Shown: piece by piece, positions 36,607 through 59,862 of the stretch | Layout of the letters: each line of letters begins with the position of its first letter | Numbering within the stretch: position 1 is the stretch's first letter | Virus record (IMG/VR): IMGVR_UViG_3300045738_001977 | DNA length: 64,000 bases | Reading direction: 5' to 3' (one strand) | From: an uncultured virus (IMG/VR IMGVR_UViG_3300045738_001977) | Lineage: Duplodnaviria > Heunggongvirae > Uroviricota > Caudoviricetes | Position numbers and translations under genes: made by a program | The notes under the pieces: model-generated | The model's database searches: none | Told to the model about the DNA's origin: nothing | What the model saw: the letters and a program-made list of their open reading frames with translations, nothing else

Positions 36607-39600
36607 ATGGCAGACATTAGAGTAAGAGTCGCTGGCGAAACCACTCAGCTCCAAAAGGACATCAAAAGAGCTTTAAAGGGTGGCTATTCTCTGGGTTCGC
36701 TTGATGGCAAGGGGGTCTCCCAGCCCCTTGGCAAAATCAAGGGGCAATTAGGAGAGTTTGACAAGTCCATGGAGGCCGCTAATGCTCGTGTCATAGCGTT
36801 TGGAGCTTCAACTGGCGCTATTTATGCTGTCGCCACAGCAATTCAACACATGGTTAAGTCTGCTATCGAAGTAGAAAAAGCCCTTACCGATATTAACGTA
36901 ATTTTAGGAGCAACTTCTACCAACCTAGAAAAATTTGGAAATTCTTTATTTGCTATAGCCAGCGCAACTGGTCAATCGTTCAAAACAATAGCTGAAGCGG
37001 CGTCAGAATTAGCAAGACAGGGCTTGGGCGTAGAAGAATCACTAGGACGAGTAAGAGACGCAATGATCTTGGCTCGCATATCTGGATTAGATGCCGCCGA
37101 CGCAGTTAGCTCTTTAACGGCTGTTCTTAACGGTTTTACAAAAGCGGCGTATGAATCAAATGAAGTTGTAAACAAAATAGTCGCTGTGGATGCAGCTTTT
37201 GCTGTAAGCGCTGCCGATTTGGCAGAAGCTATTAAGCGCGTTGGAAGTACCGCTGCCGAAGCAGGCGTTTCATTAGAAGAGCTATTAGCTATTACCGCAG
37301 CCACACAACAGGTAACTGCTCGTGGGGGCGCCGTAATTGGTAACGCATTCAAAACAATTTTCACAAGGATGCAAAGACCAAGGGTTATTGAAGCTCTAAA
37401 AGCCGTCGGAGTAGAAACAAAAAACGCTTCAGGAAGTTCTCTAGGCTTAATGAAAGTTTTAGAGAATATGGCAAAATCATACGACAAAATGAACTCGGCT
37501 CAAAAGTCTGTGGTAGCAGAAATGGTTGGTGGCGTTTTCCAAGTAAACATATTAAAAGCAGCGTTGGGAGATTTAAGCAAAGAAACCTCTCTCTATGGCC
37601 AAGCGCTCAAAATTGCAAACAGCGCGACAACTGAAGCTAACGATAGAAACAACGAGCTTAACCAAACGATAAGTTCTCAGTTGATTAAAACAATGAACAA
37701 CCTAGTAAGGGTTGGCGCCAAAGTAGGAGAATTAACGTTCGGCCCTGCTTTGGAAAAAAGCTTAGCAGGAGTTAATTCCATACTTGGAAAAGCTGGCGAT
37801 AAAGATGGGGGCGGAGAAAGTATTGGTAAAAAATTAGCAAAGGGCCTTCTGTCTGGCATAGGTTCTGTCATTAGTGGTCCCGGGATCGCCTTTATAACCC
37901 TAGGAATAATGAAGCTATTCCAAAAATTAGTTAGCTTTGCCTCCGACGCCATGGGTTCAATGTCGGGGCTCAACAGTAAATCCAAAGAAACAGCGGCAAT
38001 ACAATCTCAAGTGTTACAATATCTTCAAAAAAACCCAGCAGTTATAGCCGGGATAAACGCTGGATTGGTAACTGAAAAACAGTTGCATTCTGATATCCTT
38101 TCAATGCTAAGAAGGCAAAACGACGAGTTAGACGAACAAGAAAAGGTTGCCAACCGAATTGCACAAAAGATGCAGAGAAGCGGAGCAAGAGTTTCGACAG
38201 CTACAGGAGCGAGAGAAGGCACGATTCGCGGAGGTGGCGCGGCAATAGGATATGTCCCAAATTTAAGTGAAAAAAAATACGAAGAAACAAGAGCGAGACA
38301 GCTAGGAGCACCCCCATCCGTACAAGCGAAACATTACCCACAAGGAAAAATAAAAGGAAAACCATTTACCGCCAACGACCAAGAAGACGTTCTTTCTCCG
38401 AGACAAATGCAAAAACAATACGGTGTTACTCCTCAGAAAGGAGAATACACTGTCTTACCAAAGTATGGAAAAGTGGGGCAACAAAGAAAAAAGGAATTAA
38501 AACAAAAAATTGAAAAAGCTCAAAAACCTATAAATTTTTCAGGAGGTTTTGTCCCTAATTTTATTACAGAGAATGACGTTGAAAAATTTAAAAAATCAAC
38601 ATTTAACAAAAGAAAATTTGGCAAAAAGAGAGGGGCCGTAAAAACCCAAGGCACAAAGCCAACGGCGGGACAAATGTTGGGGTACATGAATCAAAATATA
38701 AATCAAATAGATGACGCAGAACTTAAAACTTATATAGACCTAAATCGTCAAGGAAAAATATTATTGAATTGGCCGCGCGGAGGCGGTAAGCCTAGTGAAC
38801 AAACGCAAGCAAGAATTTCACAAATGTCAGGAGGCAAAGCCGGAACGAGCAAAAAAGCTGGAAGGACAAAAGAAGAAAGAGGCGCCGGTTTATCTGCGGC
38901 AGACATAGAGGGCCCAATTCTGCCGGTGCTCAAGCTTCAAACCGGGGGCGAAACTGCAGAAATTGGACAAAGAACAGCCGGCTTTGGTTTAAAGATAAAA
39001 AACGTAGAGAAAGATTTTAACAAACATTTTAACGCCGAATACGGAAAGCTCGTCGGCAACATGGGGGCAAAAATGTTCCAAGGAAAACCAGAGTTGCAAA
39101 AAGCTTTTAAGCCTCAAAAACTAGCCGCCGACGCGCAAGGCCAAGTTAAAGGTCACGTATGGGAAAGCTTCGTAAGGGGCATGATGCAGGAAGAAAAAGC
39201 GGTCGTTAGCAAAAGAGTTGACGTAAGTAAAGGCACGAAAGTAAGACCAGAGTTTCAAAGTTTGTTTCCAAAGCAGCTTCACAAGGGTGGGTTTGAAATT
39301 AGAGCAGGAGGAATATCAGGGCCAGACGCCGTAGGAAAAATGGAAGAAAGCGGAATCTCCACGACCTTTAAAAAGCTTGGCGCAGGTTATACCACTACGA
39401 AAGGCGGCAGAAGAAAACTCTCCCACAAAGAAGCCAGAGAACTATATGAATATGAGCATGGTGAAAAACCAAGTTTCGCGCCAGCGCACGACATGGCCAA
39501 GGGCACTTCGTCAGCTGTGGATTTTGGCTCCAAGAAAAAAGGCGGCATAAGAAGAATGGTTCTAGACTCAGACTTTTTAAAACAGCATTATGCAAAAATG

Positions 39601-42600
39601 GGGCCGGAGGCCGCTCAACAATCAATGAGCGCCCAACTTGACGGTGACCCAAAACCAAACATTAAAAAACTTTTTGATAAAATAGCCACACAAGCTCAGC
39701 AAAAGGGCAAGAGAACTACCTTAGTCAACGCCGCTCCCGGCGCAGGAAAAACATCTTTTGCCATGGGCAAAAAAGGCACCCAAATAACATCGATTGGCGA
39801 CCTTGATCGCGGAAGCAAACTAGTAATACTTAGAGCGGTTGAGCGAGGCGAAAACCTAGTAAAGGAACCCTATTTTAACAAAGCTGACAGGGTAATGCAC
39901 TTGGATGTTCCACCTGAAGAGATTGATAGAAGAAGAGCTCAAAGAGATAAGTCAATTAGAGCGGGCACATCAAAAACTGCGTACGGCAGACCCGTTGGCT
40001 CAACCGAGTTCGCGGGAAAAGATTTCAGCGCTGCAGAAGCCAGAGTAGCAGAAGAGTTTTCGGGAACCAGCGGAAAATTTAAATCTCTACAAGCCGGAAA
40101 AGAGAAGTGGAGAATGAAAGGCGCTTCAGAGATTGAAAAAATTCATGACACCCCAATGGTTATGACCGCTGGAGCATTTTCCCCCCCACATAAAGGTCAT
40201 GGTACTATTTTCAAAAAGATGTTGAAAGACGCGGAGAAAACAGGCGCGGTGCCTATAGCCGCAGTATCAAAGGGAGAGGGGAGAACGGGAGACGTAGGAT
40301 TAACAATCAGAGAAAAAAGAAAATTAATTGAAACAGAATACCCCGAAATGCAAACCATGGGTATTTCAGGATTCGGGGGTATACCGGAAGTTATGCGAGG
40401 ACCCGACGGAAGACTTATAAGAGCAAAAGCTGGAAAGTCAAAAGTCATTCTTGGAAGCGATAGGGTTAGCGACTCCGTAGGGGCAGGCTTTAGAAAAAAG
40501 GGAATGGAAGTTGAAGGGGTAGCCAGAGATCTTAATTCGAAAGGGATGGATGCAACCGACGCAATAAGCGCGACAAAAGTAAGAAGCGCTATTTTAGGAG
40601 GCAGAGTAGGAGAGGCGAAACAAGCCCTAGACCCTCGAATTGGAGAAATACTTACTAGACCCGAAAATGTTAATAGGATGAACAAGCGGGCGGCGGTTAT
40701 AGCAGAAAAAAAACAAAAAGAAAAGGGTATTAATACTTTAGTAGACGCAGAATTTAGAAACCTAACAAAAATAGCAGTTAATAAAGGTATTAGAGGCGCG
40801 GGAGAAAAGCCCATTTCCCGACTCGTTGGCCCAGTAACAAAGTCTGATGATCCCGAAGTTATAGCTTCAATAGGGCGAATTAAAGATTTAAGAGAAAACG
40901 AAAAAACAAGAATTAAAAAAGACTACGATCATCGCGTTGCTCAAATGGCTCGAGACAACCCTATGTCTATGGGCAGTGGTTATATTCCTAATTTTGCTAT
41001 AATGCGCAAATATAGCAAAGGGAAAAATGTTATGTCATTTGATGGGACAATAGATGACATAGTTACATCCATCGAGTCGGGCGGGCCCGAATTGAAAAAA
41101 ATTATTGAAAATGCAAACAAGAGTCTTGTCAGCACTCGGGAAGGAAAAGGAACAAAAAAAGCCCCCGGACCTTTTGCTCACGTTGAAGACACTTCATATG
41201 GATCCCTAGCTCCAATAGAAAAAACCGACAAATTTACTTCAAGAACCAAGTTCGTGAAAATTACTCCAAAAGAGATAAAGGCGTTTCAAGACCGCCACCA
41301 CCCTGAAAAATTCCCTGACAATGTGGCTGCAGAATTTGTTATGGCAGAAAAATATGGAGGATTCGTAACGGGAAAAGATCAATATCACGGAGGGTCGGCA
41401 GCCGAAGCTAAACGGCAAAAGATAAGAGGGATTGGTGAATCACAAAAAAGAACGGTCAAACAGCGGCCCAACAAACGCTCAACGGGGGAAGGAGCGTTAG
41501 GTGACAAATATTCGCAAGACATCCTTTTCCCCAAAGGAGGAGATACACATGGCCTTGGAGCTGTATCTGCAGATACGAAATGGAAAGACAACATAAGCGC
41601 TCCAAACAAAGGCAAGGGCCTAGGAAAACCGAAAATAGAAGAATTTTACGGAGCAACGATCGGTAAGCACGCAAGAGACTCCTTGTCTCGCGGCTTGGTA
41701 GATAGACAATTCAAAGAAGCTAAGCAAACTCGGGTCGATAAGATCGATTTTGGACTAGGGCTTATGGGAACGAAGGAGAAGGCGTTAAAAAAACTCCCCG
41801 GATCTTCGCCGAAGAAAAAAGCCGCACGCTCGTCTGGGCGGAAGTCCGAAGGTTACATTCCAAACTTCGCAAAAAAAAGAACGGGGGGAATTAAAGCAGC
41901 TATCGAAAGAGAAGAGTCTGCCGGACACAAGGCTAAAGTTTTATATTCAGACAGACTACAATCTCCCGTTGTAGTAAATGAGAAACAAGTTAAAAAACAT
42001 GGCCCCAATGCTGACGCGATCATAAGAGGGGATCATGTTAATCAGGGCCAAGGAGGATCAAAGACCAACCTAATGAAATCCGGCTCAGGCAAGGAAATGT
42101 ATGACGACGGTTTTGTTCCTAATTTTATGGGCGGTGGGGGCTTTATGGGGTCAATGGGCTTGGGAATGTTTGGGTTTATAGCTCAATTTGATTCACTGAA
42201 GAGATCTCTTGACCCGGTTCAAAAAGAGCTGCATAAGACCTCTAAAGAATTGGGAAGATGGCAAATAGACTTAGATAAACTAGACCGATCACTTGAGAAA
42301 ACAAGAGGGGAGTTGCACGAATTAGGCGCCGAGAATGTAAAACTAAAGGACGTGGGTGGCGGTAAATATGAAACTGAAGATCCAAGATTAGCGGGGGTTT
42401 TGAGTTCGGCCAATATGCCCGCATTGCAAACGGAGGCGGATCGTATCCGCGGCGGAGCCTCCGGCCCCGGCGCCGAAAAGGCCGCCATGGAACAGGCTGT
42501 TACGGAGGCTCGAACGGCAGAGCTGCAAGCTCAAGAAGGGCGTGATGTTGGAGAAAGAGGGAGGAAAGAAACACAATTAACTGGTGGTCAAGATAAAGTG

Positions 42601-51600: not shown

Positions 51601-54600
51601 GGAGCTACTTTGGACACTGGCGTACAAGCTGCCCTCAGCGCAACGCCCGTCACTGGCGACCCAACAAGTTTACCCGTCGGCGCATTCGCACCCGGAACGG
51701 CCTTACAGGATATGGGCGGGAGCAGACCGCTAAAAACCGATCCGATGTGGTCTAAAGGACTGGCACCGAACTGGGCGAAGGCCGAGGAGAATAAAGACGC
51801 CATCAACCAAAGGCCAATCCCCGTGGGAATGACTAAATTCAACGCGATGGGGGAGGATGTGCCGCTACGGGAGCTGACAGCGTTTGAAGCTGGAGGTATC
51901 CAAGGGCTTGAAAACCGTGACGTTAAATTGCGCATCGGTCAAGGGAAGCTAGCAACCACACCCGATCAAAGACAAGGCTTAACAAGGGCTATAGCTACAG
52001 GAATGCAACGCCCTGTGGACGAGGGTGGTTTCGGGATGACCGCGGTACGGCATTCATACGTAGGCGGTCAGGAAGCGGTCCCCGGCGTGGCAATGTCAGC
52101 CGGTACGCTTGGCGCTCGGCACGGAGTGCCATACGGGGGCGCATATTCGGGGTCTAAATCGTCGAAGGTGGCGGGCGGCGTAGCCACCACACGAATAATT
52201 TCTGCGAGCGAAGGCAAAGTGAAGGAGGCAAAGGAGAGACTTGAAAAGGCAAGAAAGGCCAGAAGCAACTACAAAGGTAAAAAAGGTTTGAATGAACCCA
52301 AGTGGGTTGAACTTGACAAGAAATTTGCTGAGGCACAATACGAACTTGAAGCTTTACAAGCTGGTGGAGAAACCGAAACAAGTCAAGAAAGAAACGTAGG
52401 CGTTGCAGCGAAAACGTCAGCTCAACCAAGTCAGCCAGCCTTTAGAAGAAAGATACCGACTCAGGGTGGAGCGGGGTATACGAGCACTGGAACATATGAA
52501 TTTCGTCACGAGAAAAAAACTGACGAAGAGGCCCGCCGACTCCTCGGGGAACAAGCAGCGGTAGCCGGCGGCGAGAGGCAGGCGAATTATTCTACCACCC
52601 CGGGCGTGCGGCGTGTGAAACCCGGCAGTCAAATTATTTCACAGCTCAAACCCATCGAGCACGCGGGCGTACCAATAGATAATAGCAAAATGACAGAGGG
52701 ACATTTTGATAAGGGGATGTTTTTTGGGCCGTACGCAGATCAATCCTATAATCCGAATGCCCAAATAGGTACCAGCGGTTCTAATGCGCAGGAAGAACTC
52801 ACAACCCTTCGAGGAAAACTCGAAGGTCCTAATGCTCTTGGAAAGAATGAGTACGCAATTTTAGCGTCAGAGGAGACAGGTCAAGAAAAGATTCAAGGAC
52901 CCAAAGGGACAAGAGGAAAAATTGATGCAGTATTAAGAAACATGACAGTAGGAGATCTCTACAGAGGTACGCAAGCGGAAACCGTAAACAAAAGGAGTGG
53001 AAGACCGCAGAGCCCCCAGCAGCGAATAAAGTTTGGAGGAAAAGCTGCAAACCTAGAAACAAGCAAAGGAACAATGGCTTCGTGGGATGAATTCTCCACG
53101 GGAATGGAGCAAATAAGATATAGCTTAGGAGGGGAAATAGATCCGTTTAACATGGCGGAACAAACCCCGGGGCTTGGCGGCAAAAGGCTTAGCGATGTAG
53201 CGAGGGCTGAAGGCGAGCTGTTATATACTAACAAAAGAAAGGTCGACGGGAAAACACAAGTTACGGGTCGAGAAGGCGCGGGTCGCTTGTATGCTCGGCA
53301 AGGGAGATATGAACTAGGTAAAAGCGGATTCAACCAAAATACTGGCGAAGGAATATACGGAACAGGAATTCTAGCGCAGCAATCAGCTTTTATGCAGGGC
53401 CCCTTACGAGCGCAAACTGGCATATTTGGTCAGGCCATGGAAAGATATAGAGGGGGAGGAGCAGCCCTTACGGAGCAGGAATTTGCCGGCGGTCCAAAAT
53501 CACAATTTCAAAAACAACTATTTCAAATCAAATCAGCACAAGTTGGCACATTTGACCGTGGCCAAGGCAAGCAGGGCGATTTCTCACCGGGGGGCATTGC
53601 CGCGTATGGGAAAAAAGGCATGCGAAGCCAACTTAAGCGCGAATTAGACAAAGATGGAAAAACTGAAAGATGGATGTTTAGAGGCAAAGAAGTAAAGAGG
53701 GGTAGTGATTTAGCGAGGAGAATTTCGACAGGCACTCAGTCAACCCTAGGTTATCGAACTGAAAATGACGCAAAAACAAAATTAGGTTTAAAGAAGGATG
53801 GCGGCACATATGATTCCAGTAAGCGTTATTCATTACAGGGTCAAGCGGAGTATGCGGCGGAACAATATCGCTCGGCTAAAGATGACAAAGGGCGGGAACG
53901 CGCAAAACGCTTGGCGCCCAAAGGTTTAGATTTGTGGAACGAAGACAGTGCCTATAGAAAAGGGCTGGACAAGTTACAGCAAGAAGGTTTAACCACCGAA
54001 GGCTTAGGGGCTGGAGACATATCGCAATACGGAAGAAGATTTCGTAGGGATAACGAAGGAAATCTGCAACGGAAAGCTCAAGAAGACACCAAAGGCTTTG
54101 TAGTAAACGAACGTATAGCGCAAAAATTTGAAGAAAAGAAAATCAGTAATGAACGCGCCGGCACGGTCATCCCCGGAGGGAAGCGCACTGAAGATCAATT
54201 GAGAACGGCTGGCCGGGAAGAAATGCTTGGCCTAGAACCGGGCCAACTTACGGCAGAACAAAAGAAACAAATCGAAACCCAACGTCGAGCGCGACCGGAA
54301 GAAGGATTAACGGACGCACAGCGAACTAAACTTCAATCGCAACGAACAGCCAAACGAACAACCCAACGAGCAGCTCTCACGGACAAGACGGCGAGCAGCT
54401 ACGCTGGCACTACTGGTGGCGAAGCCGAATTCAAAAGAATATCAGCAAACTATAACAAACTTATGGAAGCAAGGGGAGGAGAGAAACTCTCTGATGCAGA
54501 ACTCAAAGATTTTTTGGCTGGCGAAACGAAAGGGGCATTACAACCTCCTGACGAGCGTCGAGGCAACCTGAGAATCAGGTCGGAAAAAGTGGGTCAGGGA

Positions 54601-57600
54601 GCAGCGTGGGTGGAAGCCGGAGGTGATCCCTCCAAGCTCCATCGCGCCCAAGTCGAAGCAGAAAAGCATCAAGCGGAAGTGGAGCGCGCCCCAGAAACCA
54701 CTTACGTAGGGTCATCTCGCGGTGTCTACAAACTGAGCGGGGAAGGCGAGCGAAAGCGGAGAATCGAGGAAGCGGAAAACGAGAAAATCGCTGCTCAAGA
54801 AGAATTGGTTGCGCACCGGGCGCCTACAACCGACAGATTTGGCGGTCAAGAAGCTGCAGAAACTTTACAAGCAAACCTTAGAAATATTTGGAGAGTTGGC
54901 TCCGAAGGCTTTAGTAACGCAATGCCTACCGCACTACAACAATTTGCTGCTTCGGGAGCATTTAGCGTAGACGAACAAAAAAATCTCGCTACAGCGGCAA
55001 CTCGAGCTGACGCTCAGGGTACATTTGGTTTACCGATTTTTGGAGAAGGAGATACTGGAGGAGGACTTACTGGCGAAAGTTTTGCTAAGGCCCTCAAAGA
55101 CTCCGCTCATGAAAAGAAGAAAATACGTCTTTCCGAAAAACAATTAGATAAATTAAATCAAATAATTGATGCTCTAAGAACAGGCTCCCCAGAAGAACAA
55201 GCAACAGGAGACAGACTAGAGGCCGTAGCTAACGCAATAACCGAACGCGGAACACTCGGCGGGGGTCGCGCTGGCGCCGGACAAGCCGGAGGATTTGTTC
55301 CAAACTTTAGCAGGGCAGCTGAAGAAGCAAATATGCCTGCTGGAGCAAAGGCCTATTATGATGGGTCAGTTCAAATCAATGGACAAAAGGGAGCATGGTT
55401 AAACACTAGTGAAAAAGTTTTCAGGGGCGTAGGGAAAAACGGAGACAGCGCAGTTCTTAACGAAAAAATGATGAGAGCTGCAGCTAATGCGGCGGACGGC
55501 TTTGTTCCGAATTTTGCTGGTGGGATGAGTCTAGCTCAAAAAGCAACGGAGAAACCAGAGGACAGGAAGGCTCGCATAAGTAAAGAAAAACGCTTAAACC
55601 TACGTCTCGCTGGCGCAGCGAAAGAACGGAAGCCCGAAAAGAAGCCGTGGTACAAATTTTGGAGCGAAGGCTTCGTTCCTAACTTTGGTGGCTGGTGGTC
55701 TGACATGAAAACGGGCGGAAGCATGTTGGTAGGGCTTGCTACTGGCGGCGCACTTGGCGATTCGAGCGCAGAGAATGATTTAGCTGGGGCTGACGCTTCT
55801 AATTTTAAGCGAGGTGAGATGACAAGGCGTAGCACATTGCAAAACTGGAATGCCGGTGCGACCGGAGCCAAGTACTTGGGAGATGGGGCGCAAGGGGCAT
55901 TGACGATTGCTACGGGCGGAGCATCGGCGAGTATTGTTGCCGGCGCAAAAGCCGTAAGTACAAAAGCCGTAGGTAAATTAACTACTAGTTATGCAGCCGC
56001 AGGGAAAGGGGGACAAGCTATTGCTCGGAATGCAGGCAATATTGACAACACGATTAGCGTTGTCTCATCCGGAACCCCTGCATTATACGCAAGCAGAGCT
56101 GGCGGCTTCGTTCCGAATTTCCAACCTCGGGGCGGCCGACGAAATCCGTTTGCCGCAGTAATGGCAACCCCACAAGTCGGCACAACGTCCGGCCCGGCGA
56201 CAATAGCTGCTCCCGGAAGACGTGGAGGCGGACGGCAAACATCGCTCGGCCCGGCCCCAATAGCTGCCCCCGGAAGACGTGGAGGCGGACGGCCTCAACC
56301 CAGAGTAGGAGCAAGACCTCAATCCGGGAGAAGTTCTGATAGTGCGTCAACTACCGTCCGTGAACCAACGGCAAAAGACATTGCAGACCTACAGCAAGAA
56401 GAGCGCAACTTTCAGGCGGCCCGAGCTCTAGCCGCACGTAGAGCGCCGGAAATAGCGGCGGCTCATAAGGCGTACCTAGAAGCAAAGGGAACAATATATG
56501 AAAAAGGACGCCTTCGCCTTCGCGACGAACTGATCAAAGAAATATGGGGTGCTGGCTCCACGATAGCAACACCCACTGCGCCTGCCGCACCCGCTCCACG
56601 TGACCCAACGCCAGAAGAAATAACGGCCGCAGTAGAAGAAGAGCGCGCCTTTCAGAAAGCTGAAGCAGTGGCGAAAGCGAAGCAGCAAGTTAAAATAGCT
56701 AAAGAAGCTGCAGAGAAAAAACGCGCAAAAGCTCTAGCAGAACATAGAGGCTATGATAGAGAAACGGGGGGAACAAGAAAACTGGAAGTTTCCCTTAATG
56801 ACAAATACGGCAACATTTATACAAATAAATCAGCAAAAACAGGACAAAGATTTACCGCGTTCTCCCCAGACGGCAAAGCAATAGGGATGTATGAAGTAGT
56901 TCCCAGTGTTGGAGAGGGCTTCAACGAAAAAACCGGGAAGGGAACATCAAGGCTACAAGCAGTTCAGGGGTTAGGCAAAGGCCCCGGCACGTTACCACCC
57001 GGAACGATACTAAGAAATATTAACCGCATGGCAGAAGAAAGCCAAGAAAAAAGCGCAGGAAAAACAGAGGGTGCTACTTGGCGATCAGATAAACTACAGG
57101 AAACTAAACCTGTTCTTGCGGCCAAGCACATACCCACGCCCGCCGCACCTGCGCTCGCCGCACCTGCACTCGCTACTGTAGCTACGCCAGCCGACGAGTC
57201 AAAAGCCGATCGCAAAAAGCGCAAACAAGGTCGCCGAAAGAAACGGGCTGAGAAAAAGGCTGGCCAAAACATACCTCCATCGACCGCGCCCCTTGTTCCA
57301 ACTAAATCGCCACCAGAGAGCGGGCATGTGATGAATTATGATCCGAAAAGCGGCAGCTATTTAATTACAAACGGTAGCTTGGGTGACGTCGGTCAAATCA
57401 TTGGCCCAGATGGAAAAGTGTTGGGAGAAATAACGGTAACAGGAGAACACTCTAAGCGGAAAGAAGGAAACCTCATGACCGTAGCAACATCGACCATGCC
57501 GCCGGGCACAGATCCAACCGGATCAATTGTTCGTTGGGGCAAAAAAGAAGCAAAATATTCCGGCTTTGTTCCGAATTTTTCCACTGGTTTAGAAAGAGCA

Positions 57601-59862
57601 ATTAAAGCTGAAAACAAAGCAACGGGTGGACAAGCAGAAGTCAGAACAAGCCCCACCTTACATGTCGCTGCAAGGGGGCAAGAAAAATGGCCATTCGCAA
57701 AGAGTCATCCCGAAGGAATACAAGCTGCCATAGCTAATTCTAAGGCAACTCAGATTCCAAATTTTGCACCACCAGCCAAACCTGACGGAGCAACAACTGC
57801 GCTGGCGAAAGTAGAGAAAGATTTAGCAGATAAAATCAAAAGATTAACAAACACACTATCGACGACGGGTGAAAGGTTACTACCAGTCGGTGACGGATTA
57901 AGCCAATTAGCTACTATAGAAAAAGGTCAAATCAAAGCGGTACAAAAATCTACCAACGCATACCAAAAAGCCGTAAGGAACAAAGCTAGCGCCGTCGACA
58001 TTGCCACAGCTTTCAAAAACGCTCAAAAAGCTCAAACCGAGTTATCACGAACACAGACAGACATAACAAGCATAAAAGAAATAAAAAGACTGGAGAAAAT
58101 TGACAAAAAATCCGGCCAAGCCAAAATAACAGGCGCCACCACTATACAAGGCGTATCCGCACAACGCGGATTAAAGGGGACTGTCATTGATCCAACACGA
58201 GCAAGAGCAAAACCAAAAGCAGGACCAACTAAAACCGGAGGATGGCAAAACATAGTACCCGGGGCCGGAGCAGGTTCCGGAGGAGGAGCGTCAGGAATCC
58301 CCGGGGTTGTAGGCAGAGCGCACTCTGCGTCAGCAGCGCTTGGACGACGTCACCCAAGGCCAGCTCCAACCGGAACAACGTATAGTGATCCCAGCGGCGT
58401 TAGAATTACAAGACCCTCTGTTACCGGACCAACGCCCGCCGCTACTGGAGCTGTCACTCCACCCACCGGTACACCCACGTTCACAACAGCGCCTCCAACA
58501 ATTCGTCCCGCTGCGGCTCCAGCGCCACCCGCTCGCGCGGCGCCGCTTGAAGACCCAAGATCATTTAAGGGAAAAATGCAACGAATACGGCTCCAAAAGC
58601 AAGCTGAAAAAGATGCGCAAGCTGCGGCTAATAGAGCGTCAAGAGGACCGGGAGGCCCCGCTGCACCCGCTCCCCCTACCGGAATGGGTGGCCCCCCGGG
58701 AGGACAAGTTCAACGCGAAGATCAAGAAGTTGATTACGAAGTAGAACAATCTACGGAAAATCTACTAAATATTAAAACAACAATAGAACAACTTACAGCC
58801 CAAGCAAAACAAGACAGGTCAGATATGGGCGCAGGCAAGGCTGGAGCATCCGCAAGGTTTGCTCAAACCCAAGCAGAATTAACCAAAGCCATAGAAGAGC
58901 GAGAAAAAGCGTGGAGAAAAGACGAGAAACTTAAATCACCCGAGGCGAAAAAAGCAAGAACGCTCAAGAAAAGATTAGGAAAACATGCGAAACCGTTAAC
59001 ATTTGAAAGAACTGGTGAAGATACCGAAGGCGCTAGCGCCATGATGCAACCGGCTTTCGGAGATCCTCTAGGCTCAAGATTTAACACGGCAGGCGGTGGC
59101 GAAGGGGTTGGCCAACAACAAACGTACAACCTTGGAGATGGAAGGACAATTAACCTCGGCGCCGGAGGGTTGTCGTCTGCGGCGGCACTTGCAATGGTCC
59201 CGGGCATGGCGACAGGAAGCACCAGTGGTCCTCGCGGCGGAGCCCCCGGCGTTTCAGCCACAACTTCCTCGACCACAACTGGGATGCCCCCCGGCGTTTC
59301 GGCCACAACTTCCTCGGCCGCAACTGGGATACCCGCTCTAACTGGTCAAGCAGCCATGGTCCAAGGTTTACCCGCTGATACGAGCGACCAACGTGAAACA
59401 CGCGAACGAGCTCTTAGGGCAACGTATCCGGATAGAGACCCAGTGCGCGCAGGTGGAGAAACAGGCAATGCTGAAGGCGACGGAGAAAGGATCGTAAAAG
59501 CAATGACAGACGCTATCAACGCGTCTTTCGCGACGAGCATACCGAAATTTGCCGACGCAATGAGCGCTAAGATTGGCGAAATATTCTCAACAAATAACAA
59601 ACCAGAAACCGGTGGTGACGCTGAAACACCAACAGAGTTTGTTAGCACTGGTGGAGATGAAGGCGCCATATCTGGCACAATAAAACACGATCTAGGAGAA
59701 CTTGATGGTCATTTCACAATGGAAATAGGCGGAAAACTTGAAGGAGTAGGTTTGTCGGCGGAAGAAATAAATAATTTAATTATAGCTAAAATCGGAGAAG
59801 AATTTGAAAAACTAGGAATAGAATATACAGCGGCACCGCCAACTAATATACAAAACGTATAA
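36607..59862 (+). CDS. Giant (7,751 aa) tape-measure protein with embedded P-loop kinase and HxGH nucleotidyltransferase domains and repeated G[FY][VI]PNF motifs
   Basis: The N-terminal ~400 aa match TP901-type TMP cores ('EVEKALTDINVIL...AEAASELARQGL...FAVSAADLAEAIKRVGSTA..AGVSLEEL......RGGAVIGNAFKTIFTR'). Canonical position after chaperones. APGAGKTS at 39733; GAFSPPHKGH at 40171. Confidence 0.88.
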   Translation: MADIRVRVAGETTQLQKDIKRALKGGYSLGSLDGKGVSQPLGKIKGQLGEFDKSMEAANARVIAFGASTGAIYAVATAIQHMVKSAIEVEKALTDINVILGATSTNLEKFGNSLFAIASATGQSFKTIAEAASELARQGLGVEESLGRVRDAMILARISGLDAADAVSSLTAVLNGFTKAAYESNEVVNKIVAVDAAFAVSAADLAEAIKRVGSTAAEAGVSLEELLAITAATQQVTARGGAVIGNAFKTIFTRMQRPRVIEALKAVGVETKNASGSSLGLMKVLENMAKSYDKMNSAQKSVVAEMVGGVFQVNILKAALGDLSKETSLYGQALKIANSATTEANDRNNELNQTISSQLIKTMNNLVRVGAKVGELTFGPALEKSLAGVNSILGKAGDKDGGGESIGKKLAKGLLSGIGSVISGPGIAFITLGIMKLFQKLVSFASDAMGSMSGLNSKSKETAAIQSQVLQYLQKNPAVIAGINAGLVTEKQLHSDILSMLRRQNDELDEQEKVANRIAQKMQRSGARVSTATGAREGTIRGGGAAIGYVPNLSEKKYEETRARQLGAPPSVQAKHYPQGKIKGKPFTANDQEDVLSPRQMQKQYGVTPQKGEYTVLPKYGKVGQQRKKELKQKIEKAQKPINFSGGFVPNFITENDVEKFKKSTFNKRKFGKKRGAVKTQGTKPTAGQMLGYMNQNINQIDDAELKTYIDLNRQGKILLNWPRGGGKPSEQTQARISQMSGGKAGTSKKAGRTKEERGAGLSAADIEGPILPVLKLQTGGETAEIGQRTAGFGLKIKNVEKDFNKHFNAEYGKLVGNMGAKMFQGKPELQKAFKPQKLAADAQGQVKGHVWESFVRGMMQEEKAVVSKRVDVSKGTKVRPEFQSLFPKQLHKGGFEIRAGGISGPDAVGKMEESGISTTFKKLGAGYTTTKGGRRKLSHKEARELYEYEHGEKPSFAPAHDMAKGTSSAVDFGSKKKGGIRRMVLDSDFLKQHYAKMGPEAAQQSMSAQLDGDPKPNIKKLFDKIATQAQQKGKRTTLVNAAPGAGKTSFAMGKKGTQITSIGDLDRGSKLVILRAVERGENLVKEPYFNKADRVMHLDVPPEEIDRRRAQRDKSIRAGTSKTAYGRPVGSTEFAGKDFSAAEARVAEEFSGTSGKFKSLQAGKEKWRMKGASEIEKIHDTPMVMTAGAFSPPHKGHGTIFKKMLKDAEKTGAVPIAAVSKGEGRTGDVGLTIREKRKLIETEYPEMQTMGISGFGGIPEVMRGPDGRLIRAKAGKSKVILGSDRVSDSVGAGFRKKGMEVEGVARDLNSKGMDATDAISATKVRSAILGGRVGEAKQALDPRIGEILTRPENVNRMNKRAAVIAEKKQKEKGINTLVDAEFRNLTKIAVNKGIRGAGEKPISRLVGPVTKSDDPEVIASIGRIKDLRENEKTRIKKDYDHRVAQMARDNPMSMGSGYIPNFAIMRKYSKGKNVMSFDGTIDDIVTSIESGGPELKKIIENANKSLVSTREGKGTKKAPGPFAHVEDTSYGSLAPIEKTDKFTSRTKFVKITPKEIKAFQDRHHPEKFPDNVAAEFVMAEKYGGFVTGKDQYHGGSAAEAKRQKIRGIGESQKRTVKQRPNKRSTGEGALGDKYSQDILFPKGGDTHGLGAVSADTKWKDNISAPNKGKGLGKPKIEEFYGATIGKHARDSLSRGLVDRQFKEAKQTRVDKIDFGLGLMGTKEKALKKLPGSSPKKKAARSSGRKSEGYIPNFAKKRTGGIKAAIEREESAGHKAKVLYSDRLQSPVVVNEKQVKKHGPNADAIIRGDHVNQGQGGSKTNLMKSGSGKEMYDDGFVPNFMGGGGFMGSMGLGMFGFIAQFDSLKRSLDPVQKELHKTSKELGRWQIDLDKLDRSLEKTRGELHELGAENVKLKDVGGGKYETEDPRLAGVLSSANMPALQTEADRIRGGASGPGAEKAAMEQAVTEARTAELQAQEGRDVGERGRKETQLTGGQDKVEALEKRAQAEEEFKNKLSAGAMAVGMAMSVAAGMIQDETSRWKKGMEAAGQGAQMAATAMFMIPGPIGLSIGAVLGIATAARGIFHAMTDVGPKLKKAFEQGREELTKFSNGIQKYTQLYQKNMQAHEDPNTSAQTLIRLNRQMAEALMDVPLAYRAQIASAKNMTQMQEEMANALAEKTRSVQQMEVSAKIGQKLDDSRGMLPDTGQDLMRWIGLKKLGQTIGMVDKEPYNPKTRGGRMEAKAVANKLLTSLSETQLDTVMNFQEQVIDNDDNRRALPGSGKETTAALRLSGELMRDVSSIEELVDVLEDMRKNGAAVSMIMARVSAGAARMKEQLEVEKDLSRIRGEQKHWNEQLSDSLKASVNSYNQAKSAYAQFLQLIGKKMAFREKMIQERGSKFGKIGGRTAREIKYKEVELDMKRLAPFMSAGDASRKKEQLAMVRMLDKNAKSIEAVLTPVASDMGAIVQKQVASVKLQAKQLETGTPGAGGSKDKWVAATKKVKKALDLQEMVFFQEREEIGKGFTPEQIYQRRENLMASPLAKEVLGGGKISQIMTDLGTKVMVTNQKLSEMKIEQLKQLKAMLHGNIVAERMRQDKVDLKTMGGIEAFLNPSAFKPLEQAYNKSLTNLSRGREYGSQETRGRGAMQYLLSMKQMTGGSLDAKSPMVERYRREAISGKMTDEANKWRSLADREFQEAGRAPVGSRDRSDRLAAADYAMGRSEDVEGLTRTATKQVDAKLKLDNTIIGNLQDMNSWLKQIKEVLDLKTTENDRILSRALEKTTAGPDAERVDRQVFNFRQQIKMQQQQAEDIASTKEHINNIFAVMKKVAVASKGEYDTEDMEDSFTMQGMNNFFNQAKYVQPYERNEKGQFYSTKTKGFEDNVALKDRKQIAGNPLVKAMALIKKQMGDIQERTTGKRGENWTKGDVGMQKRYGARGKVTGREYVARHEGGDREAYRRLTSELILIKGMMKSSDIADTFTDTMKGGANRMVAEQALRVQSGVDQHGKPLPEGGGGYGQSSKEAPQVTPRGVPIYSGGAEDRKVDAQVDAAYDAGHRWDVVSGGEPEGFRDFQRIGMENAKLTSDPICECIRALGNKFADYGGNYKMSGVEKNQPFPKDVGAAFPTGPGLPQTLPLVPMVAAATTGIPAIVRAISTGWNKVKQGWDKATKSRFAQEIKSRAARFKEAGGFKGAGKRFAAAYRSPETYKGAERKTLTRAGLKQLAGGQQQLEMFSKTGGQGQYLGEEPTYRMDKNTLSQRAGGFLGRNLPKFMGGQGFAGDAVKWREGGGMGRLKDKGAEAVSKIRASMEPLLQKYADFSGRAPERREEVGKSLKKLLQKYADFSGRAPERRAAVGKGFKDFWEGMKGQKFETTPSKFGHDPGRAQRAGIKTFDALLKIMNKISGGTTDLVTLQQKGLNTSKAGWANMKAWNTVMGAIKAIPNIFVGAVQGLAGGGEGWRSGGFGGKSGAWSEKGIDKLIRGISKGVGYVVGAVPRAIIKGIWKAMPLELVPPTAPETAKAIEAAKVKAMPRTGIGGGISDAIAEKSGASGETKASRGKLKWNFGKGALGSLGEFADIGQMRTRFSGADAEKTWQAKVAKRQTAYEKGGKARLQAKMTVAGKGEIAPVQVPIKAGAKERWMRANARDGRVGGMGSQRGVGSGGGVVRHWIDAARRQVFGREMGGLGKGHRQNLALSEEGGKLGAGKTFTDRFTGKGGTEIQRGTIGKWLTSPLKSASAAWKGEGWAGAGRGSLYDRTAERVKGWHGAKMEGAQGPGALAGAKRAGLTGLGYAGRGIDATRSFMQKPLPSLGGRMAMTYGIGKAISGVTSAAAGDPHRDMADKKGFWEKGLSRNLLGSFTKTGRKEKGHLENLSGGLIDTTSWTHQGRTGESGSTDFRWRGKEAVDATLINTVAAGIFRNLSGEMGASQFAKQYATNAAGQVPVYSQGYSHAMDATSNTGKFFGTKTTGYLADTSAKGVRGALGKGIEGLGKLLDKVTGASSRAIINPPIRSTGQGFSIGQTGKAATTSAPLGAANLLKGGLIHVVGSALGDFIRAQAGEFEGGGAADIGGFMTKVGAAAYGGTVATGGNFVGGAISGIIEAGFEFKQIGNDVGALNDQMNELGNLYGSTANQYRTHFNSWASDMTMSGKHMKKFGDTFKAIGEWKATQQETMGATARESRPGVGSFIWDAVTLGGREGSTDKKIYEATSGAREKEAAALEVLRKKVLQLARDLGRTKDGIVKFAKITNVAGELVTNAYKMDIRTAGGGGLQQMSDRLLKDAVAGRGIKERETARQDAIDKHKRSKSIGLSVAGQFGQGSFGGAITDENAQIKMARAVALGKLAKKEELAVSKVPSRYQPEARRQSEARMKQIAPQSFAKWEEGGKKNAFSVFLKEGRDALTKTQGSKPSPMDRAKTGRQQSEFGSFYAYEEMFKQSSDQSSQRGQGVMIGIMTRQLHELRMIREINDGWSRASGTSGVPKRATFIKTKPEEHQRTAYAGKTAGIQIVTAMNNAVAQQQAAQGRPYQQPAQNRPWPQRPAQPGAAQPAQPGTARPGTARPGTARPGTAQPAQSGAPQPGPTDSSAVDAARYAAGAPPLNSPTAPPPPALFGMSQVGGVNIYAQNTQATSDHYRDLAGAGRRAGPGPRQLAQYKNDGWDGTGSGAHWAGEPGAMGTPNRGSTVVLVEQRSRAMQPGADINQAPYASGGTPPADAASSIISDGQRMVLQAVAAARAAMEELERMKQPAESPYGDTMGDPTDIAAQTKIVKTLKDKVISLGGKIGAVVGRKKAEDAAPDALKGPAGAVGEVAGRAQGAATTKQFIDAISGISLGDQMIATAIVSGFQALVTAAKDPSKAGDVSGLGNIIKDFLTRSQVSNFSGGSGRAGSPPTTETPEAPTPAKPVVPTLAKKPVVPTPAKQAPSPNTLPTDKVDPDTGLPSSAANAIPNADFMDSRARAQGVDPTTGLPTAGISQLGVDPLTGLPTGGGPGGGGGSGSGGGYGGGGATLDTGVQAALSATPVTGDPTSLPVGAFAPGTALQDMGGSRPLKTDPMWSKGLAPNWAKAEENKDAINQRPIPVGMTKFNAMGEDVPLRELTAFEAGGIQGLENRDVKLRIGQGKLATTPDQRQGLTRAIATGMQRPVDEGGFGMTAVRHSYVGGQEAVPGVAMSAGTLGARHGVPYGGAYSGSKSSKVAGGVATTRIISASEGKVKEAKERLEKARKARSNYKGKKGLNEPKWVELDKKFAEAQYELEALQAGGETETSQERNVGVAAKTSAQPSQPAFRRKIPTQGGAGYTSTGTYEFRHEKKTDEEARRLLGEQAAVAGGERQANYSTTPGVRRVKPGSQIISQLKPIEHAGVPIDNSKMTEGHFDKGMFFGPYADQSYNPNAQIGTSGSNAQEELTTLRGKLEGPNALGKNEYAILASEETGQEKIQGPKGTRGKIDAVLRNMTVGDLYRGTQAETVNKRSGRPQSPQQRIKFGGKAANLETSKGTMASWDEFSTGMEQIRYSLGGEIDPFNMAEQTPGLGGKRLSDVARAEGELLYTNKRKVDGKTQVTGREGAGRLYARQGRYELGKSGFNQNTGEGIYGTGILAQQSAFMQGPLRAQTGIFGQAMERYRGGGAALTEQEFAGGPKSQFQKQLFQIKSAQVGTFDRGQGKQGDFSPGGIAAYGKKGMRSQLKRELDKDGKTERWMFRGKEVKRGSDLARRISTGTQSTLGYRTENDAKTKLGLKKDGGTYDSSKRYSLQGQAEYAAEQYRSAKDDKGRERAKRLAPKGLDLWNEDSAYRKGLDKLQQEGLTTEGLGAGDISQYGRRFRRDNEGNLQRKAQEDTKGFVVNERIAQKFEEKKISNERAGTVIPGGKRTEDQLRTAGREEMLGLEPGQLTAEQKKQIETQRRARPEEGLTDAQRTKLQSQRTAKRTTQRAALTDKTASSYAGTTGGEAEFKRISANYNKLMEARGGEKLSDAELKDFLAGETKGALQPPDERRGNLRIRSEKVGQGAAWVEAGGDPSKLHRAQVEAEKHQAEVERAPETTYVGSSRGVYKLSGEGERKRRIEEAENEKIAAQEELVAHRAPTTDRFGGQEAAETLQANLRNIWRVGSEGFSNAMPTALQQFAASGAFSVDEQKNLATAATRADAQGTFGLPIFGEGDTGGGLTGESFAKALKDSAHEKKKIRLSEKQLDKLNQIIDALRTGSPEEQATGDRLEAVANAITERGTLGGGRAGAGQAGGFVPNFSRAAEEANMPAGAKAYYDGSVQINGQKGAWLNTSEKVFRGVGKNGDSAVLNEKMMRAAANAADGFVPNFAGGMSLAQKATEKPEDRKARISKEKRLNLRLAGAAKERKPEKKPWYKFWSEGFVPNFGGWWSDMKTGGSMLVGLATGGALGDSSAENDLAGADASNFKRGEMTRRSTLQNWNAGATGAKYLGDGAQGALTIATGGASASIVAGAKAVSTKAVGKLTTSYAAAGKGGQAIARNAGNIDNTISVVSSGTPALYASRAGGFVPNFQPRGGRRNPFAAVMATPQVGTTSGPATIAAPGRRGGGRQTSLGPAPIAAPGRRGGGRPQPRVGARPQSGRSSDSASTTVREPTAKDIADLQQEERNFQAARALAARRAPEIAAAHKAYLEAKGTIYEKGRLRLRDELIKEIWGAGSTIATPTAPAAPAPRDPTPEEITAAVEEERAFQKAEAVAKAKQQVKIAKEAAEKKRAKALAEHRGYDRETGGTRKLEVSLNDKYGNIYTNKSAKTGQRFTAFSPDGKAIGMYEVVPSVGEGFNEKTGKGTSRLQAVQGLGKGPGTLPPGTILRNINRMAEESQEKSAGKTEGATWRSDKLQETKPVLAAKHIPTPAAPALAAPALATVATPADESKADRKKRKQGRRKKRAEKKAGQNIPPSTAPLVPTKSPPESGHVMNYDPKSGSYLITNGSLGDVGQIIGPDGKVLGEITVTGEHSKRKEGNLMTVATSTMPPGTDPTGSIVRWGKKEAKYSGFVPNFSTGLERAIKAENKATGGQAEVRTSPTLHVAARGQEKWPFAKSHPEGIQAAIANSKATQIPNFAPPAKPDGATTALAKVEKDLADKIKRLTNTLSTTGERLLPVGDGLSQLATIEKGQIKAVQKSTNAYQKAVRNKASAVDIATAFKNAQKAQTELSRTQTDITSIKEIKRLEKIDKKSGQAKITGATTIQGVSAQRGLKGTVIDPTRARAKPKAGPTKTGGWQNIVPGAGAGSGGGASGIPGVVGRAHSASAALGRRHPRPAPTGTTYSDPSGVRITRPSVTGPTPAATGAVTPPTGTPTFTTAPPTIRPAAAPAPPARAAPLEDPRSFKGKMQRIRLQKQAEKDAQAAANRASRGPGGPAAPAPPTGMGGPPGGQVQREDQEVDYEVEQSTENLLNIKTTIEQLTAQAKQDRSDMGAGKAGASARFAQTQAELTKAIEEREKAWRKDEKLKSPEAKKARTLKKRLGKHAKPLTFERTGEDTEGASAMMQPAFGDPLGSRFNTAGGGEGVGQQQTYNLGDGRTINLGAGGLSSAAALAMVPGMATGSTSGPRGGAPGVSATTSSTTTGMPPGVSATTSSAATGIPALTGQAAMVQGLPADTSDQRETRERALRATYPDRDPVRAGGETGNAEGDGERIVKAMTDAINASFATSIPKFADAMSAKIGEIFSTNNKPETGGDAETPTEFVSTGGDEGAISGTIKHDLGELDGHFTMEIGGKLEGVGLSAEEINNLIIAKIGEEFEKLGIEYTAAPPTNIQNV
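46529..46649 (+). repeat. 46-bp exact direct repeat (LLQKYADFSGRAPERR x2) in TMP
   Basis: Copies at 46529-46574 and 46604-46649, period 75 nt. Confidence 0.9.
50212..50330 (+). repeat. 15-nt tandem repeat (PGTAR/PGAAQ) in TMP
   Basis: cccggcactgcacga-type units. Confidence 0.85.

What the first reader, a model, noticed from the sequence alone, without database searches (positions are those of the whole stretch)
38248..57765. TMP looks like a polyprotein: ten G[FY][VI]PN[FL] motifs delimit cargo segments
Seen: GYVPNL 38248, GFVPNF 38545, GYIPNF 40978, GYIPNF 41851, GFVPNF 42109, 55291, 55498, 55669, 56104 and 57562, plus IPNF at 57754 (residues 548, 647, 1458, 1749, 1835, 6229, 6298, 6355, 6500, 6986, 7050). 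Codons differ between copies, so conservation is at peptide level. The flanking segments are mostly unrelated, and the motifs sit at apparent domain borders. Established: TMPs such as lambda gpH are proteolytically matured and ejected into the host. Inference: a cleavage or docking signal that turns the TMP into a set of separately released, injected effectors. I know of no description of this arrangement.
Basis: partly seen in the sequence, partly recalled or inferred. Interest (0 to 1): 0.9.

Follow-up and report, generated by a model that had tools for sequence, protein, structure and literature searches.

The report
Tape measure with motif-fenced cargo modules
The 7,751-residue tail "ruler" protein of this uncultured aquatic phage is built from unrelated modules joined by one short, strictly conserved peptide, and related phages swap modules exactly at that peptide, but whether the peptide is cut is still untested.

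Summary
ORF 36607-59862 (+) encodes a 7,751-aa protein with an N-terminal TP901-type tape-measure core. It holds ten G[FY][VI]PN[FL] motifs at the stated coordinates, plus TQIPNF and a decayed copy, GEKPSF. About 0.0005 copies are expected by chance.

The motif is the hallmark of one large uncultured phage tape-measure family. A profile of the 11 copies, run against 1.84 billion proteins, found 562 proteins. Of the 148 new top hits, 147 belong to this family. The family consensus is [AS]-x-G-[FY]-[IV]-P-N-F-A, with 1,257 copies where 23 are expected.

The motifs lie in linkers, not inside a repeated fold. Sequence similarity between relatives breaks at the motifs: 57% of alignment ends fall within 5 residues of one, against 6% for random positions. 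Two small framework modules bracket variable, shuffled cargo modules.

Cleavage and injection of separate effectors remain inference.

My best guess is a processing site (0.4), ahead of an uncut docking or packing signal (0.3). My searches found no paper describing the motif. This scan has noted the same motif before, on other DNA (e1-5828311, e1-5953343).

The parts
36607..59862 (+). Giant tape measure gene, 7,751 aa (P0001)
   Evidence: Single open frame. 16 giant relatives of 4,299-7,702 aa, including P0002 (7,656 aa, 61% identity) with the same two-array layout.
36820..37845 (+). TP901-type tape-measure core (residues 72-413)
   Evidence: TIGR01760 E 4.6e-43; PF10145 E 1.7e-32 over residues 120-306; PHROG tape-measure families down to E 4.3e-49.
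38248..38265 (+). Junction motif 1, GYVPNL
38266..38544 (+). Framework module Mod-A, copy 1 (residues 554-646)
   Evidence: Cluster 1: 111 segments in 98 proteins, 82 of them directly after the core. AlphaFold2 gives a small alpha/beta domain at pLDDT 75-90. No fold match.
38545..38562 (+). Junction motif 2, GFVPNF
38563..39459 (+). Cargo module (residues 653-951) of the family's commonest cargo superfamily
   Evidence: Aligns with 29 cargo modules of relatives; invariant G, E, D and F columns (G..FE / D[FV] / [ED]x[KR]). The model is poor (mean pLDDT 60.8) and matches no fold. The nuclease-like reading of these residues is my inference only.
39460..39477 (+). Decayed junction motif GEKPSF (residues 952-957)
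   Evidence: Aligns with GFIPNF of relatives; coordinates. P0002 has VKTPNL at the matching place.
39478..40977 (+). Cargo module (residues 958-1457) with Walker-A-like GAGKTS (1045-1050) and HxGH-like PHKGHG (1194-1199)
   Evidence: Motifs read directly. Weak hits below cut-off: CTP_transf_like E 0.017 and TIGR00125 E 0.027. Homologous modules in 14 other tape measures, including P0015-17, which lack the PNF motif. No PDB hit.
40978..40995 (+). Junction motif 3, GYIPNF
   Evidence: Similarity to P0002 and P0003 stops here.
40996..41850 (+). Cargo module (residues 1464-1748), replaced in P0002 and P0003
   Evidence: Singleton cluster. No similarity to the matching segment of P0002. Partial similarity to another position in L001.
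41851..41868 (+). Junction motif 4, GYIPNF
   Evidence: Similarity to P0002 resumes here.
41869..42108 (+). Framework module Mod-B, copy 1 (residues 1755-1834)
   Evidence: Cluster 32, linked to clusters 2 and 4 by hhalign at 86-95% probability. 55% identical to P0005 residues 1772-1863.
42109..42126 (+). Junction motif 5, GFVPNF
42127..55290 (+). Motif-free central region (residues 1841-6228): glycine-rich hydrophobic start, membrane-like stretches, long helix-prone and low-complexity parts
   Evidence: Hydrophobic stretches at residues 2015-2084 and 3130-3152. Similar to P0002 only up to residue 2859. No Pfam hit. Its role as the length ruler is inferred.
55291..55308 (+). Junction motif 6, GFVPNF
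55309..55497 (+). Mod-A, copy 2 (residues 6235-6297)
   Evidence: Same cluster as copy 1.
55498..55515 (+). Junction motif 7, GFVPNF
55669..55686 (+). Junction motif 8, GFVPNF
56104..56121 (+). Junction motif 9, GFVPNF
56122..57561 (+). Orphan cargo segment (residues 6506-6985)
   Evidence: Singleton. No hit in the loci or family proteins. No Pfam or PADLOC hit.
57562..57579 (+). Junction motif 10, GFVPNF
57580..57747 (+). Mod-B, copy 2 (residues 6992-7047)
   Evidence: Cluster 4, 42 members.
57748..57765 (+). Junction motif 11, TQIPNF (partial)
57766..59859 (+). C-terminal 698 residues, motif-free
   Evidence: Singleton. Contact with the tail tip is inferred from the order of parts in known tape measures.
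34511..35644 (+). Conserved gene just upstream of the tape measure; chaperone-position candidate
   Evidence: Homologue upstream of the tape measure in 73 of 80 related loci. N-terminal 250 aa strongly conserved. No family or PDB match.
35665..36543 (+). Second conserved gene directly upstream of the tape measure
   Evidence: Homologue in 75 of 80 related loci. No family or PDB match.

Best explanation
G-[FY]-[IV]-P-N-F (family consensus [AS]-x-G-[FY]-[IV]-P-N-F-A) is the conserved junction peptide of a cassette-built tape measure. The protein has an N-terminal tape-measure core and then a cassette. The cassette opens with the small module Mod-A, holds one or more unrelated cargo modules, and closes with the small module Mod-B. 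A long motif-free hydrophobic and helix-prone stretch follows. One junction peptide stands at every module border. This window's protein carries two such cassettes, with 5 and 6 motifs. That much is shown. The inferred part follows. Because one identical peptide is kept at more than a thousand borders between unrelated modules, one common factor must read it. I think the most likely reading is proteolytic processing, after tail assembly or after ejection, which frees the modules from the ruler and from each other. That would make the tape measure a polyprotein that carries ready-made proteins into the host ahead of the DNA. The protease is unknown; it could be a host enzyme or an unrecognised phage enzyme.
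For: The motif is real and far beyond chance. It marks one family. A profile of the 11 copies found 562 proteins at E<=1e-3 among 1.84 billion. Of the 148 new proteins among the best 150, 128 carry the same N-terminal core, and 19 of the other 20 are fragments of such proteins. Relatives picked by the core alone also have it: 66 of 66 complete tape-measure frames from IMG/VR hold 3-10 copies. Six distant Firmicutes tape measures hold none. Conservation is confined to 9 residues, with unconserved K/G/S/A-rich flanks: 1,257 copies against 23 expected. There is one motif per border. The median spacing is 172 aa, and the minimal layout has 3 modules and 4 motifs. The motifs lie in linkers. Modules are shuffled: 1,373 segments fall into 507 clusters, and the same cluster occurs at different ranks. 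Similarity breaks at motifs in P0001 against P0002, P0003, P0005 and L001. Family-wide, 56.9% of 11,530 alignment ends lie within 5 residues of the motif's F, against 6.1% of random positions. Precedents: the T5 tape measure pb2 is cut during tail assembly between its hydrophobic stretch and its peptidase domain, and both pieces stay in the tail (passages). The P23-45 tape measure gp96 carries an active RNA polymerase that works in the host (abstract and passages).
Against: No cleavage was observed, and none can be observed with these tools. No conserved protease was found. In five relatives of 136-194 kb that are 87-100% complete, Peptidase_S78 was found in 0 of 5, ClpP in 1 of 5, S49 in 0 of 5 and S77 in 0 of 5; the S77 control was silent. 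The small protein between portal and capsid has no invariant His in its alignment and no PDB match. HExxH motifs occur only sporadically in relatives and are absent from P0001. A footprint of 9 residues with near-invariant G, P and N is longer than most protease sites and also fits a docking peptide. No natural gene split at a motif was seen. P23-45 gp96 is proposed to act while still fused. Evidence that the cargo consists of enzymes is thin: sub-threshold Pfam and NCBIfam hits, one borderline GNAT hit, no PADLOC hit, and a poor model with no fold match.
Confidence: 0.4

Rival explanations
1. Uncut docking or packing signal. The junction peptide is a short linear motif bound by one conserved phage protein. 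Candidates are the two conserved genes just upstream of the tape measure (34511-35644, 35665-36543, at the usual place of tail assembly chaperones) or the inner wall of the tail tube. Alternatively it pairs between the three tape-measure chains. Either way it would keep the modules unfolded, ordered and in register inside the tube.
For: A hydrophobic 9-residue island with invariant Pro in disordered, unconserved flanks is the typical shape of a docking motif. Both upstream genes co-occur with the family, in 73 and 75 of 80 loci. The first has many invariant residues. No protease was found. Folded modules of 80-300 aa in three copies cannot fit a tail-tube lumen; this rests on general knowledge and on the T5 trimer, so some holding device is needed.
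Against: One motif at every border is more than docking needs. The long central ruler, which most needs a chaperone, has no motif. AlphaFold2 did not dock either motif onto Mod-A in cis. The upstream proteins have no recognisable family.
Confidence: 0.3
2. Passive border element or host-factor site. The Pro-Asn turn between aromatic residues insulates neighbouring modules, stopping folding or unfolding from spreading during threading through the tube. Alternatively it recruits a host chaperone or prolyl isomerase that refolds each module after ejection.
For: The position at every border and the near-invariant Pro, 1,097 of 1,107 G-ar-[IV]-x-N-F sites. Recalled only: HK97 entry depends on the periplasmic prolyl isomerase FkpA; I did not check this here.
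Against: A mere insulator would not need 5-6 near-invariant residues kept across 1,257 sites.
Confidence: 0.15
3. Self-cleavage at the conserved Asn through succinimide formation, as in nodavirus and tetravirus capsids, FlhB/YscU and inteins. It would be triggered by assembly and need no protease.
For: Asn holds 1,097 of 1,156 sites. No protease was found. Asn-Phe is the scissile bond in one known capsid autocleavage; this is recalled, not checked.
Against: The P0006/P0007 clade keeps the four-junction layout with GHIPSF, GFIPGF and GHVPSF. Ser, Ala and Gly replace Asn at 47 sites. Known Asn lyases need a folded catalytic setting, but the motif lies in low-confidence linkers next to unrelated modules.
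Confidence: 0.05
4. An evolutionary scar. The motif is only the shared end of mobile modules, or a recombination joint, with no function as a peptide.
For: Breakpoints of similarity coincide with motifs.
Against: The codons differ between copies. 18 bases are too few for homologous recombination. The peptide stays near-invariant between modules that share no other similarity, while its flanks are free to vary. Decay does occur (GEKPSF) but is rare.
Confidence: 0.05

Closest known systems
Phage T5 tape measure pb2, matured into pb2* and pb2C
   Same: It is a tape measure with a hydrophobic stretch and an enzymatic (peptidase) domain. It is cut during tail assembly at the border between them, and both pieces stay in the tail as a trimer (passages read).
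   Different: It has one cut and one cargo domain. No PNF motif is reported, and its core is of another type. Here there are 11 junctions and many unrelated modules, and no cut has been shown.
Thermus phage P23-45 gp96 (5,002-aa tape measure fused to a virion RNA polymerase)
   Same: It is a giant tape measure whose N-terminal part is an active enzyme delivered to the host (abstract and passages). This shows that a tape measure can carry working cargo.
   Different: It carries one large cargo that is proposed to work while fused. No junction motif or module shuffling is described.
Polyvalent proteins of phages and conjugative elements (Iyer et al. 2017, PMC5512222)
   Same: They are single giant polypeptides that combine many unrelated effector-type domains. 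They are thought to enter the host with the DNA and are sometimes predicted to be auto-processed by zincin peptidase domains (passages).
   Different: That paper has 0 occurrences of 'tape measure'. It describes no shared junction peptide, and most of its domains are recognisable families, unlike here.
MARTX toxins and viral polyproteins (recalled, not checked here)
   Same: They work in a similar way: arrays of exchangeable effector modules between conserved framework parts, released by cuts at short linker sites.
   Different: They carry their own protease and have proven cleavage. They are not phage tail proteins. The likeness is one of logic, not of ancestry.
TP901-1-type tape measure proteins (PF10145 / TIGR01760)
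   Same: The N-terminal core is a member.
   Different: The best cultured relatives are only 24-28% identical over the core. The six distant members examined have no PNF motif.

Membership tests
TP901-type phage tail tape measure protein | N-terminal core domain (PF10145 / TIGR01760) | tested here: met
   PF10145 E 1.7e-32, 113 bits against a cut-off of 33. TIGR01760 E 4.6e-43, 148 bits against a cut-off of 29.
TP901-type phage tail tape measure protein | Gene lies in the tail module, after head and connector genes and two small conserved genes, before distal tail genes | tested here: met
   The order of portal-like, capsid-like (PF25209, E 4.6e-4, below cut-off) and seven conserved genes before the tape measure is kept in related loci.
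TP901-type phage tail tape measure protein | Sets tail length and lies in the tube lumen | not testable with these tools
   No virion or cultured member is available. The best cultured hit is 24-28% identical.
Proteolytically processed polyprotein | Conserved short sites at the borders of independent modules | tested here: met
Proteolytically processed polyprotein | A cognate protease, in cis or in the genome | tested here: inconclusive
   S78 0 of 5, ClpP 1 of 5, S49 0 of 5, S77 0 of 5 with a silent control. No HExxH in P0001. A divergent or host protease is not excluded.
Proteolytically processed polyprotein | Cleavage products observed | not testable with these tools
   This needs mass spectrometry of virions or infected cells.
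Polyvalent proteins (Iyer et al. 2017) | Several unrelated effector-type domains in one phage polypeptide | tested here: inconclusive
   The modules are unrelated to each other, but few have a recognisable function. There are sub-threshold nucleotidyltransferase hits and one borderline GNAT hit in P0018. Relatives carry precomputed labels PF16754, PF01743 and PF16581.
Polyvalent proteins (Iyer et al. 2017) | Delivered into the host with the DNA | not testable with these tools
   Inferred only from what is known of tape measures.

The most novel reading that the evidence does not exclude
A whole family of uncultured aquatic phages, with genomes of roughly 140-190 kb and more, uses the tape measure as a programmable multi-effector delivery polyprotein. 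A universal 9-residue junction code, [AS]xG[FY][IV]PNF-A, would be cut by a host or still unrecognised protease after ejection, releasing a strain-specific set of mostly unknown proteins into the cell ahead of the DNA. That would be a phage counterpart of MARTX toxins. The junction code would then let injected-protein repertoires be read straight from metagenomes.
Probability: 0.3. Interest if true: 0.85.

Novelty: new variant of a known kind. Interest (0 to 1): 0.72.

Why it matters
Tape measures are known to be ejected first and, in single cases, to carry an enzyme (T5 pb2, P23-45 gp96). Here one short peptide fences hundreds of different, mostly unknown modules in hundreds of phage lineages: 562 protein clusters at 50% identity and more than 436 IMG/VR loci. 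If the peptide is a processing or loading signal, it gives a simple sequence rule for finding proteins that phages deliver into cells at the very start of infection. Such proteins may include new anti-defence and takeover functions. It would also give a natural cassette site for engineering cargo into phage tails. If the peptide is not cut, it is still a clean case of a short linear motif that organises a giant virion protein. Either way it is directly testable by mass spectrometry and peptide binding.

Tried and rejected
- The whole genome of the window is not held.
- Single-sequence pattern scans of IMG/VR with the N-terminus and with the C-terminal array found nothing. The alignment-based scan worked.
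- Inter-motif segments gave only sub-threshold hits in Pfam and NCBIfam and none in PADLOC. Pfam on 11 relatives gave the core only, plus two weak hits.
- PDB sequence or profile searches gave nothing usable for the P-loop/HxGH module, cargo alignments A6 and A7, upstream proteins A4 and A5 and the portal-capsid spacer protein A10. Pfam on the members of A7 gave 0 of 9.
- Foldseek on the Mod-A model gave no match at E<=0.001.
- VIA-align wide on the cargo model gave a best Z of 5.0, on a helical hairpin only. My nuclease-like reading of the conserved G..FE / D / ExK residues therefore stays unsupported by any tool.
- Protein Atlas placed the two upstream proteins only in unnamed viral clusters.
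- Complex prediction (upstream protein with the Mod-A segment) was not available, so no binding test was made.
- Co-loss test: the clade whose motif has Ser or Gly in place of Asn still keeps both upstream genes, so this says nothing about which protein reads the motif.
- Natural gene splits at motifs: the 20 core-less hits look like fragments or internal starts. One protein ends exactly in GFIPNF (P0074), but whether that is a contig end is unknown.
- An N-glycosylation sequon was rejected: the residue after F is Ala in 62% and Ser in 11%.
- Weak resemblances to the OMP beta-signal and to the prepilin peptidase site (G|F) are recalled only, were not tested, and carry no weight here.
Full report
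THE OBSERVATION

The window holds one open frame of 7,751 codons, 36607-59862 on the + strand. All ten are in this frame, and there are none elsewhere in the 64 kb. IPNF at 57754 is part of TQIPNF. By composition 0.0005 copies are expected, and 2,000 shuffles never gave more than one. The eleven copies use different codons at every position. A twelfth, decayed copy, GEKPSF (residues 952-957), aligns with GFIPNF of relatives.

WHAT THE PROTEIN IS

Residues 72-413 match the TP901-type tape-measure core: TIGR01760 at E 4.6e-43, PF10145 at E 1.7e-32, and PHROG tape-measure families down to E 4.3e-49.

Upstream lie a tubulin/FtsZ-like gene, portal-like and capsid-like genes, a 5,707-aa fibre-like gene and a glycosyltransferase. 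Seven genes follow that are conserved, in the same order, in front of the tape measure in related contigs. I saw no room for a sheath gene, so the module looks siphovirus-like; this is an inference.

The best cultured relatives are large Bacillus and Lactococcus siphoviruses, only 24-28% identical over the core. No cultured member of the family is therefore in that collection.

THE MOTIF MARKS A FAMILY

Sixteen giant relatives of 4,299-7,702 aa share the core.
- Eleven of them (P0002-P0005 and P0008-P0014) carry 8-25 copies of xx[VIT]PN[FLY].
- P0006 and P0007 carry one canonical copy plus three with Ser or Gly in place of Asn.
- P0015-17, which are only 27-28% identical, carry none.

A 30-column profile of the eleven window copies was run with HMMER against 1.84 billion representative proteins. 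It found 562 proteins at E<=1e-3 and 121 at E<=1e-10. The best 150 are 482-4,831 aa long with 3-13 matched stretches each. Of the 148 that were new, 128 have the same N-terminal core. Of the other 20, 19 match internal parts of core-bearing members at E<=1e-10, so they are fragments.

The converse also holds. Among 80 IMG/VR loci chosen by core similarity alone (436 relatives among 599 pattern matches), all 66 complete tape-measure frames (1,687-3,857 aa, median 2,361) hold 3-10 motifs, median 4. Six distant Firmicutes tape measures hold none.

ANATOMY OF THE MOTIF

Over 162 family proteins there are 1,257 [VIT]PN[FLY] sites against 23 expected. The logo is [AS](82%)-x-G(91%)-[FY](83%)-[IV](98%)-P-N-F(89%)-A(62%). 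Nothing is conserved beyond -6 and +5, where K, G, S and A are the commonest residues. These proteins were partly chosen by the motif, so the count is inflated. The core-chosen set above is the unbiased check.

At the Asn position 1,097 of 1,156 sites have N, 32 S, 11 A and 4 G. Pro is kept in 1,097 of 1,107. The median spacing is 172 aa, with an interquartile range of 80-256, which is the size of a domain.

THE MOTIFS ARE LINKERS AT MODULE BORDERS

AlphaFold2 was run on residues 535-665 with 46 aligned sequences. It folds residues 555-639 into a small alpha/beta domain at pLDDT 75-90. The first motif is at pLDDT below 50 and the second at about 60, and both lie outside any secondary structure.

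Cutting all family proteins at the motifs gives 1,373 segments in 507 clusters, of which 386 are singletons. Two clusters are framework modules.
- Mod-A is about 83 aa, with 111 copies, 82 of them directly after the core.
- Mod-B is about 75 aa and comprises clusters 2, 4 and 32, joined by hhalign at 86-95% probability.
- The rest is cargo that recurs at varying ranks.

The minimal family member reads: core, motif (about residue 542), Mod-A, motif (about 624), one cargo of about 260 aa, motif (about 890), Mod-B, motif (about 960), and then roughly 550-2,600 motif-free residues.

The window's protein has this cassette at residues 548-1840, with three cargo modules. After 4,388 motif-free residues it has a second cassette at 6229-7053, again opened by Mod-A and closed by Mod-B. 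A second cassette is rare: 2 of 66 complete IMG/VR frames have one. It is shared by the giant relatives, for example P0002.

Similarity between P0001 and P0002 runs from residue 1 to 1465 and stops at motif 3. The next segment is unrelated. Similarity resumes at residue 1746, at motif 4. P0003, P0005 and L001 behave alike.

Over 70 query proteins, 56.9% of 11,530 alignment ends inside the arrays lie within 5 residues of the motif's Phe, against 6.1% of random positions. The mode is at 0 and +1, and alignment starts pile up 5-7 residues before the Phe. These alignments are not independent, and the motif itself pulls alignments up to it, but the contrast is large.

So modules are exchanged at the motifs while the motifs persist.

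WHAT THE CARGO IS

This is mostly unknown.
- Residues 958-1457 carry GAGKTS and PHKGHG, with sub-threshold nucleotidyltransferase hits. Homologous modules sit in 14 other tape measures, including the motif-less P0015-17.
- Residues 740-951 align with the commonest cargo superfamily, which keeps G..FE, D[FV] and [ED]x[KR]. This looks nuclease-like to me, but the model was poor (pLDDT 60.8) and matched no fold.
- Relatives carry precomputed labels PF16754, PF01743 and PF16581, a borderline GNAT hit and sporadic HExxH.
- PADLOC gave nothing.

HOW IT MOST LIKELY WORKS

Shown: one peptide is kept under selection at every module border of a cassette-built tape measure. Inferred: one common factor reads it.

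I favour processing (0.4) for three reasons.
- There is exactly one site per border, including the borders to the core and to the ruler.
- The site is an exposed hydrophobic island in flexible linkers.
- T5 shows that a tape measure can be cut at a domain border inside the assembled tail, with both pieces retained.

Against this stand several points.
- No conserved protease turned up in five near-complete relatives or in the window.
- The footprint is long for a protease site.
- P23-45 gp96 is thought to act uncut.

An uncut docking or packing role (0.3) is the main rival. The partner could be the two conserved upstream proteins, the tube, or the sister chains. The tool that could have probed this was unavailable. 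Asn-driven self-cleavage is unlikely because a whole clade replaces Asn. That clade keeps both upstream genes, so it does not help to name the reader of the motif.

WHERE IT LIVES

Relatives are in IMG/VR contigs of up to 194 kb. Five of them are 87-100% complete at 136-194 kb, and one has terminal repeats. Relatives are also in 19 MAG contigs from aquatic taxa, 7 of them labelled Flavobacteri*. Binning of phage contigs is unreliable, so the host is only a lead.

NOVELTY

Full-text searches for the motif words and for tape measure together with polyvalent, polyprotein, cargo or modular found no description of it. The polyvalent-protein paper does not mention tape measures. Tape measures that carry an enzyme are known, so I class this as a new variant of a known kind. 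Earlier notes of this scan record the same GF[IV]PNF(A) fencing on other genomes, and other joint motifs in other tape-measure families. My results agree with them.

Noticed in passing
window 12090-29213 (+): A second giant gene of 5,707 aa, with collagen repeats, Laminin_G_3, a Peptidase_M43 domain, a glycine-rich domain and an F5/8 type C domain, plus PHROG tail-fibre hits. It sits between the capsid gene and the head-tail genes, where 79 of 80 related loci have nothing similar.
   Followed up: partly
window 3499-4635 (+): A tubulin/FtsZ-family GTPase gene (PF00091, E 6.4e-13) next to a protein of at least 1,159 aa with five Calx-beta stretches. No homologue was found in the 80 related loci, which reach only 10 kb upstream.
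   Followed up: no
P0015-P0017, and the C-terminal parts of P0006-P0014: A different recurrent peptide, about G-T-D-T-V-P-A-M-L-T-P-G-E-F-V-V-N, occurs 4-7 times in the PNF-less giant tape measures P0015-17 and 1-2 times near the C-terminus of P0006-P0008 and P0010-P0014. It may punctuate those proteins in the same way.
   Followed up: no
window 46528-46650 and 50251-50280 (+): Inside the motif-free centre, a 16-residue string (LLQKYADFSGRAPERR) occurs twice, 25 residues apart, and there is a run of RPGTA repeats. These are local duplications and low complexity of unknown meaning.
   Followed up: no
window 29660-30517 (+): A family-2 glycosyltransferase (PF00535, E 1.7e-14) lies between the giant fibre gene and the head-tail genes. 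It is shared only with L001.
   Followed up: no
window 51757-51774 (+): GLAPNW (residues 5051-5056) is a lone motif-like string in the centre of the protein. It could be chance or a decayed junction.
   Followed up: no
L039, L073 (IMG/VR relatives): Some relatives carry two or three tandem copies of one cargo module (cluster 6), each fenced by the motif. Cassettes therefore also grow by internal duplication.
   Followed up: no
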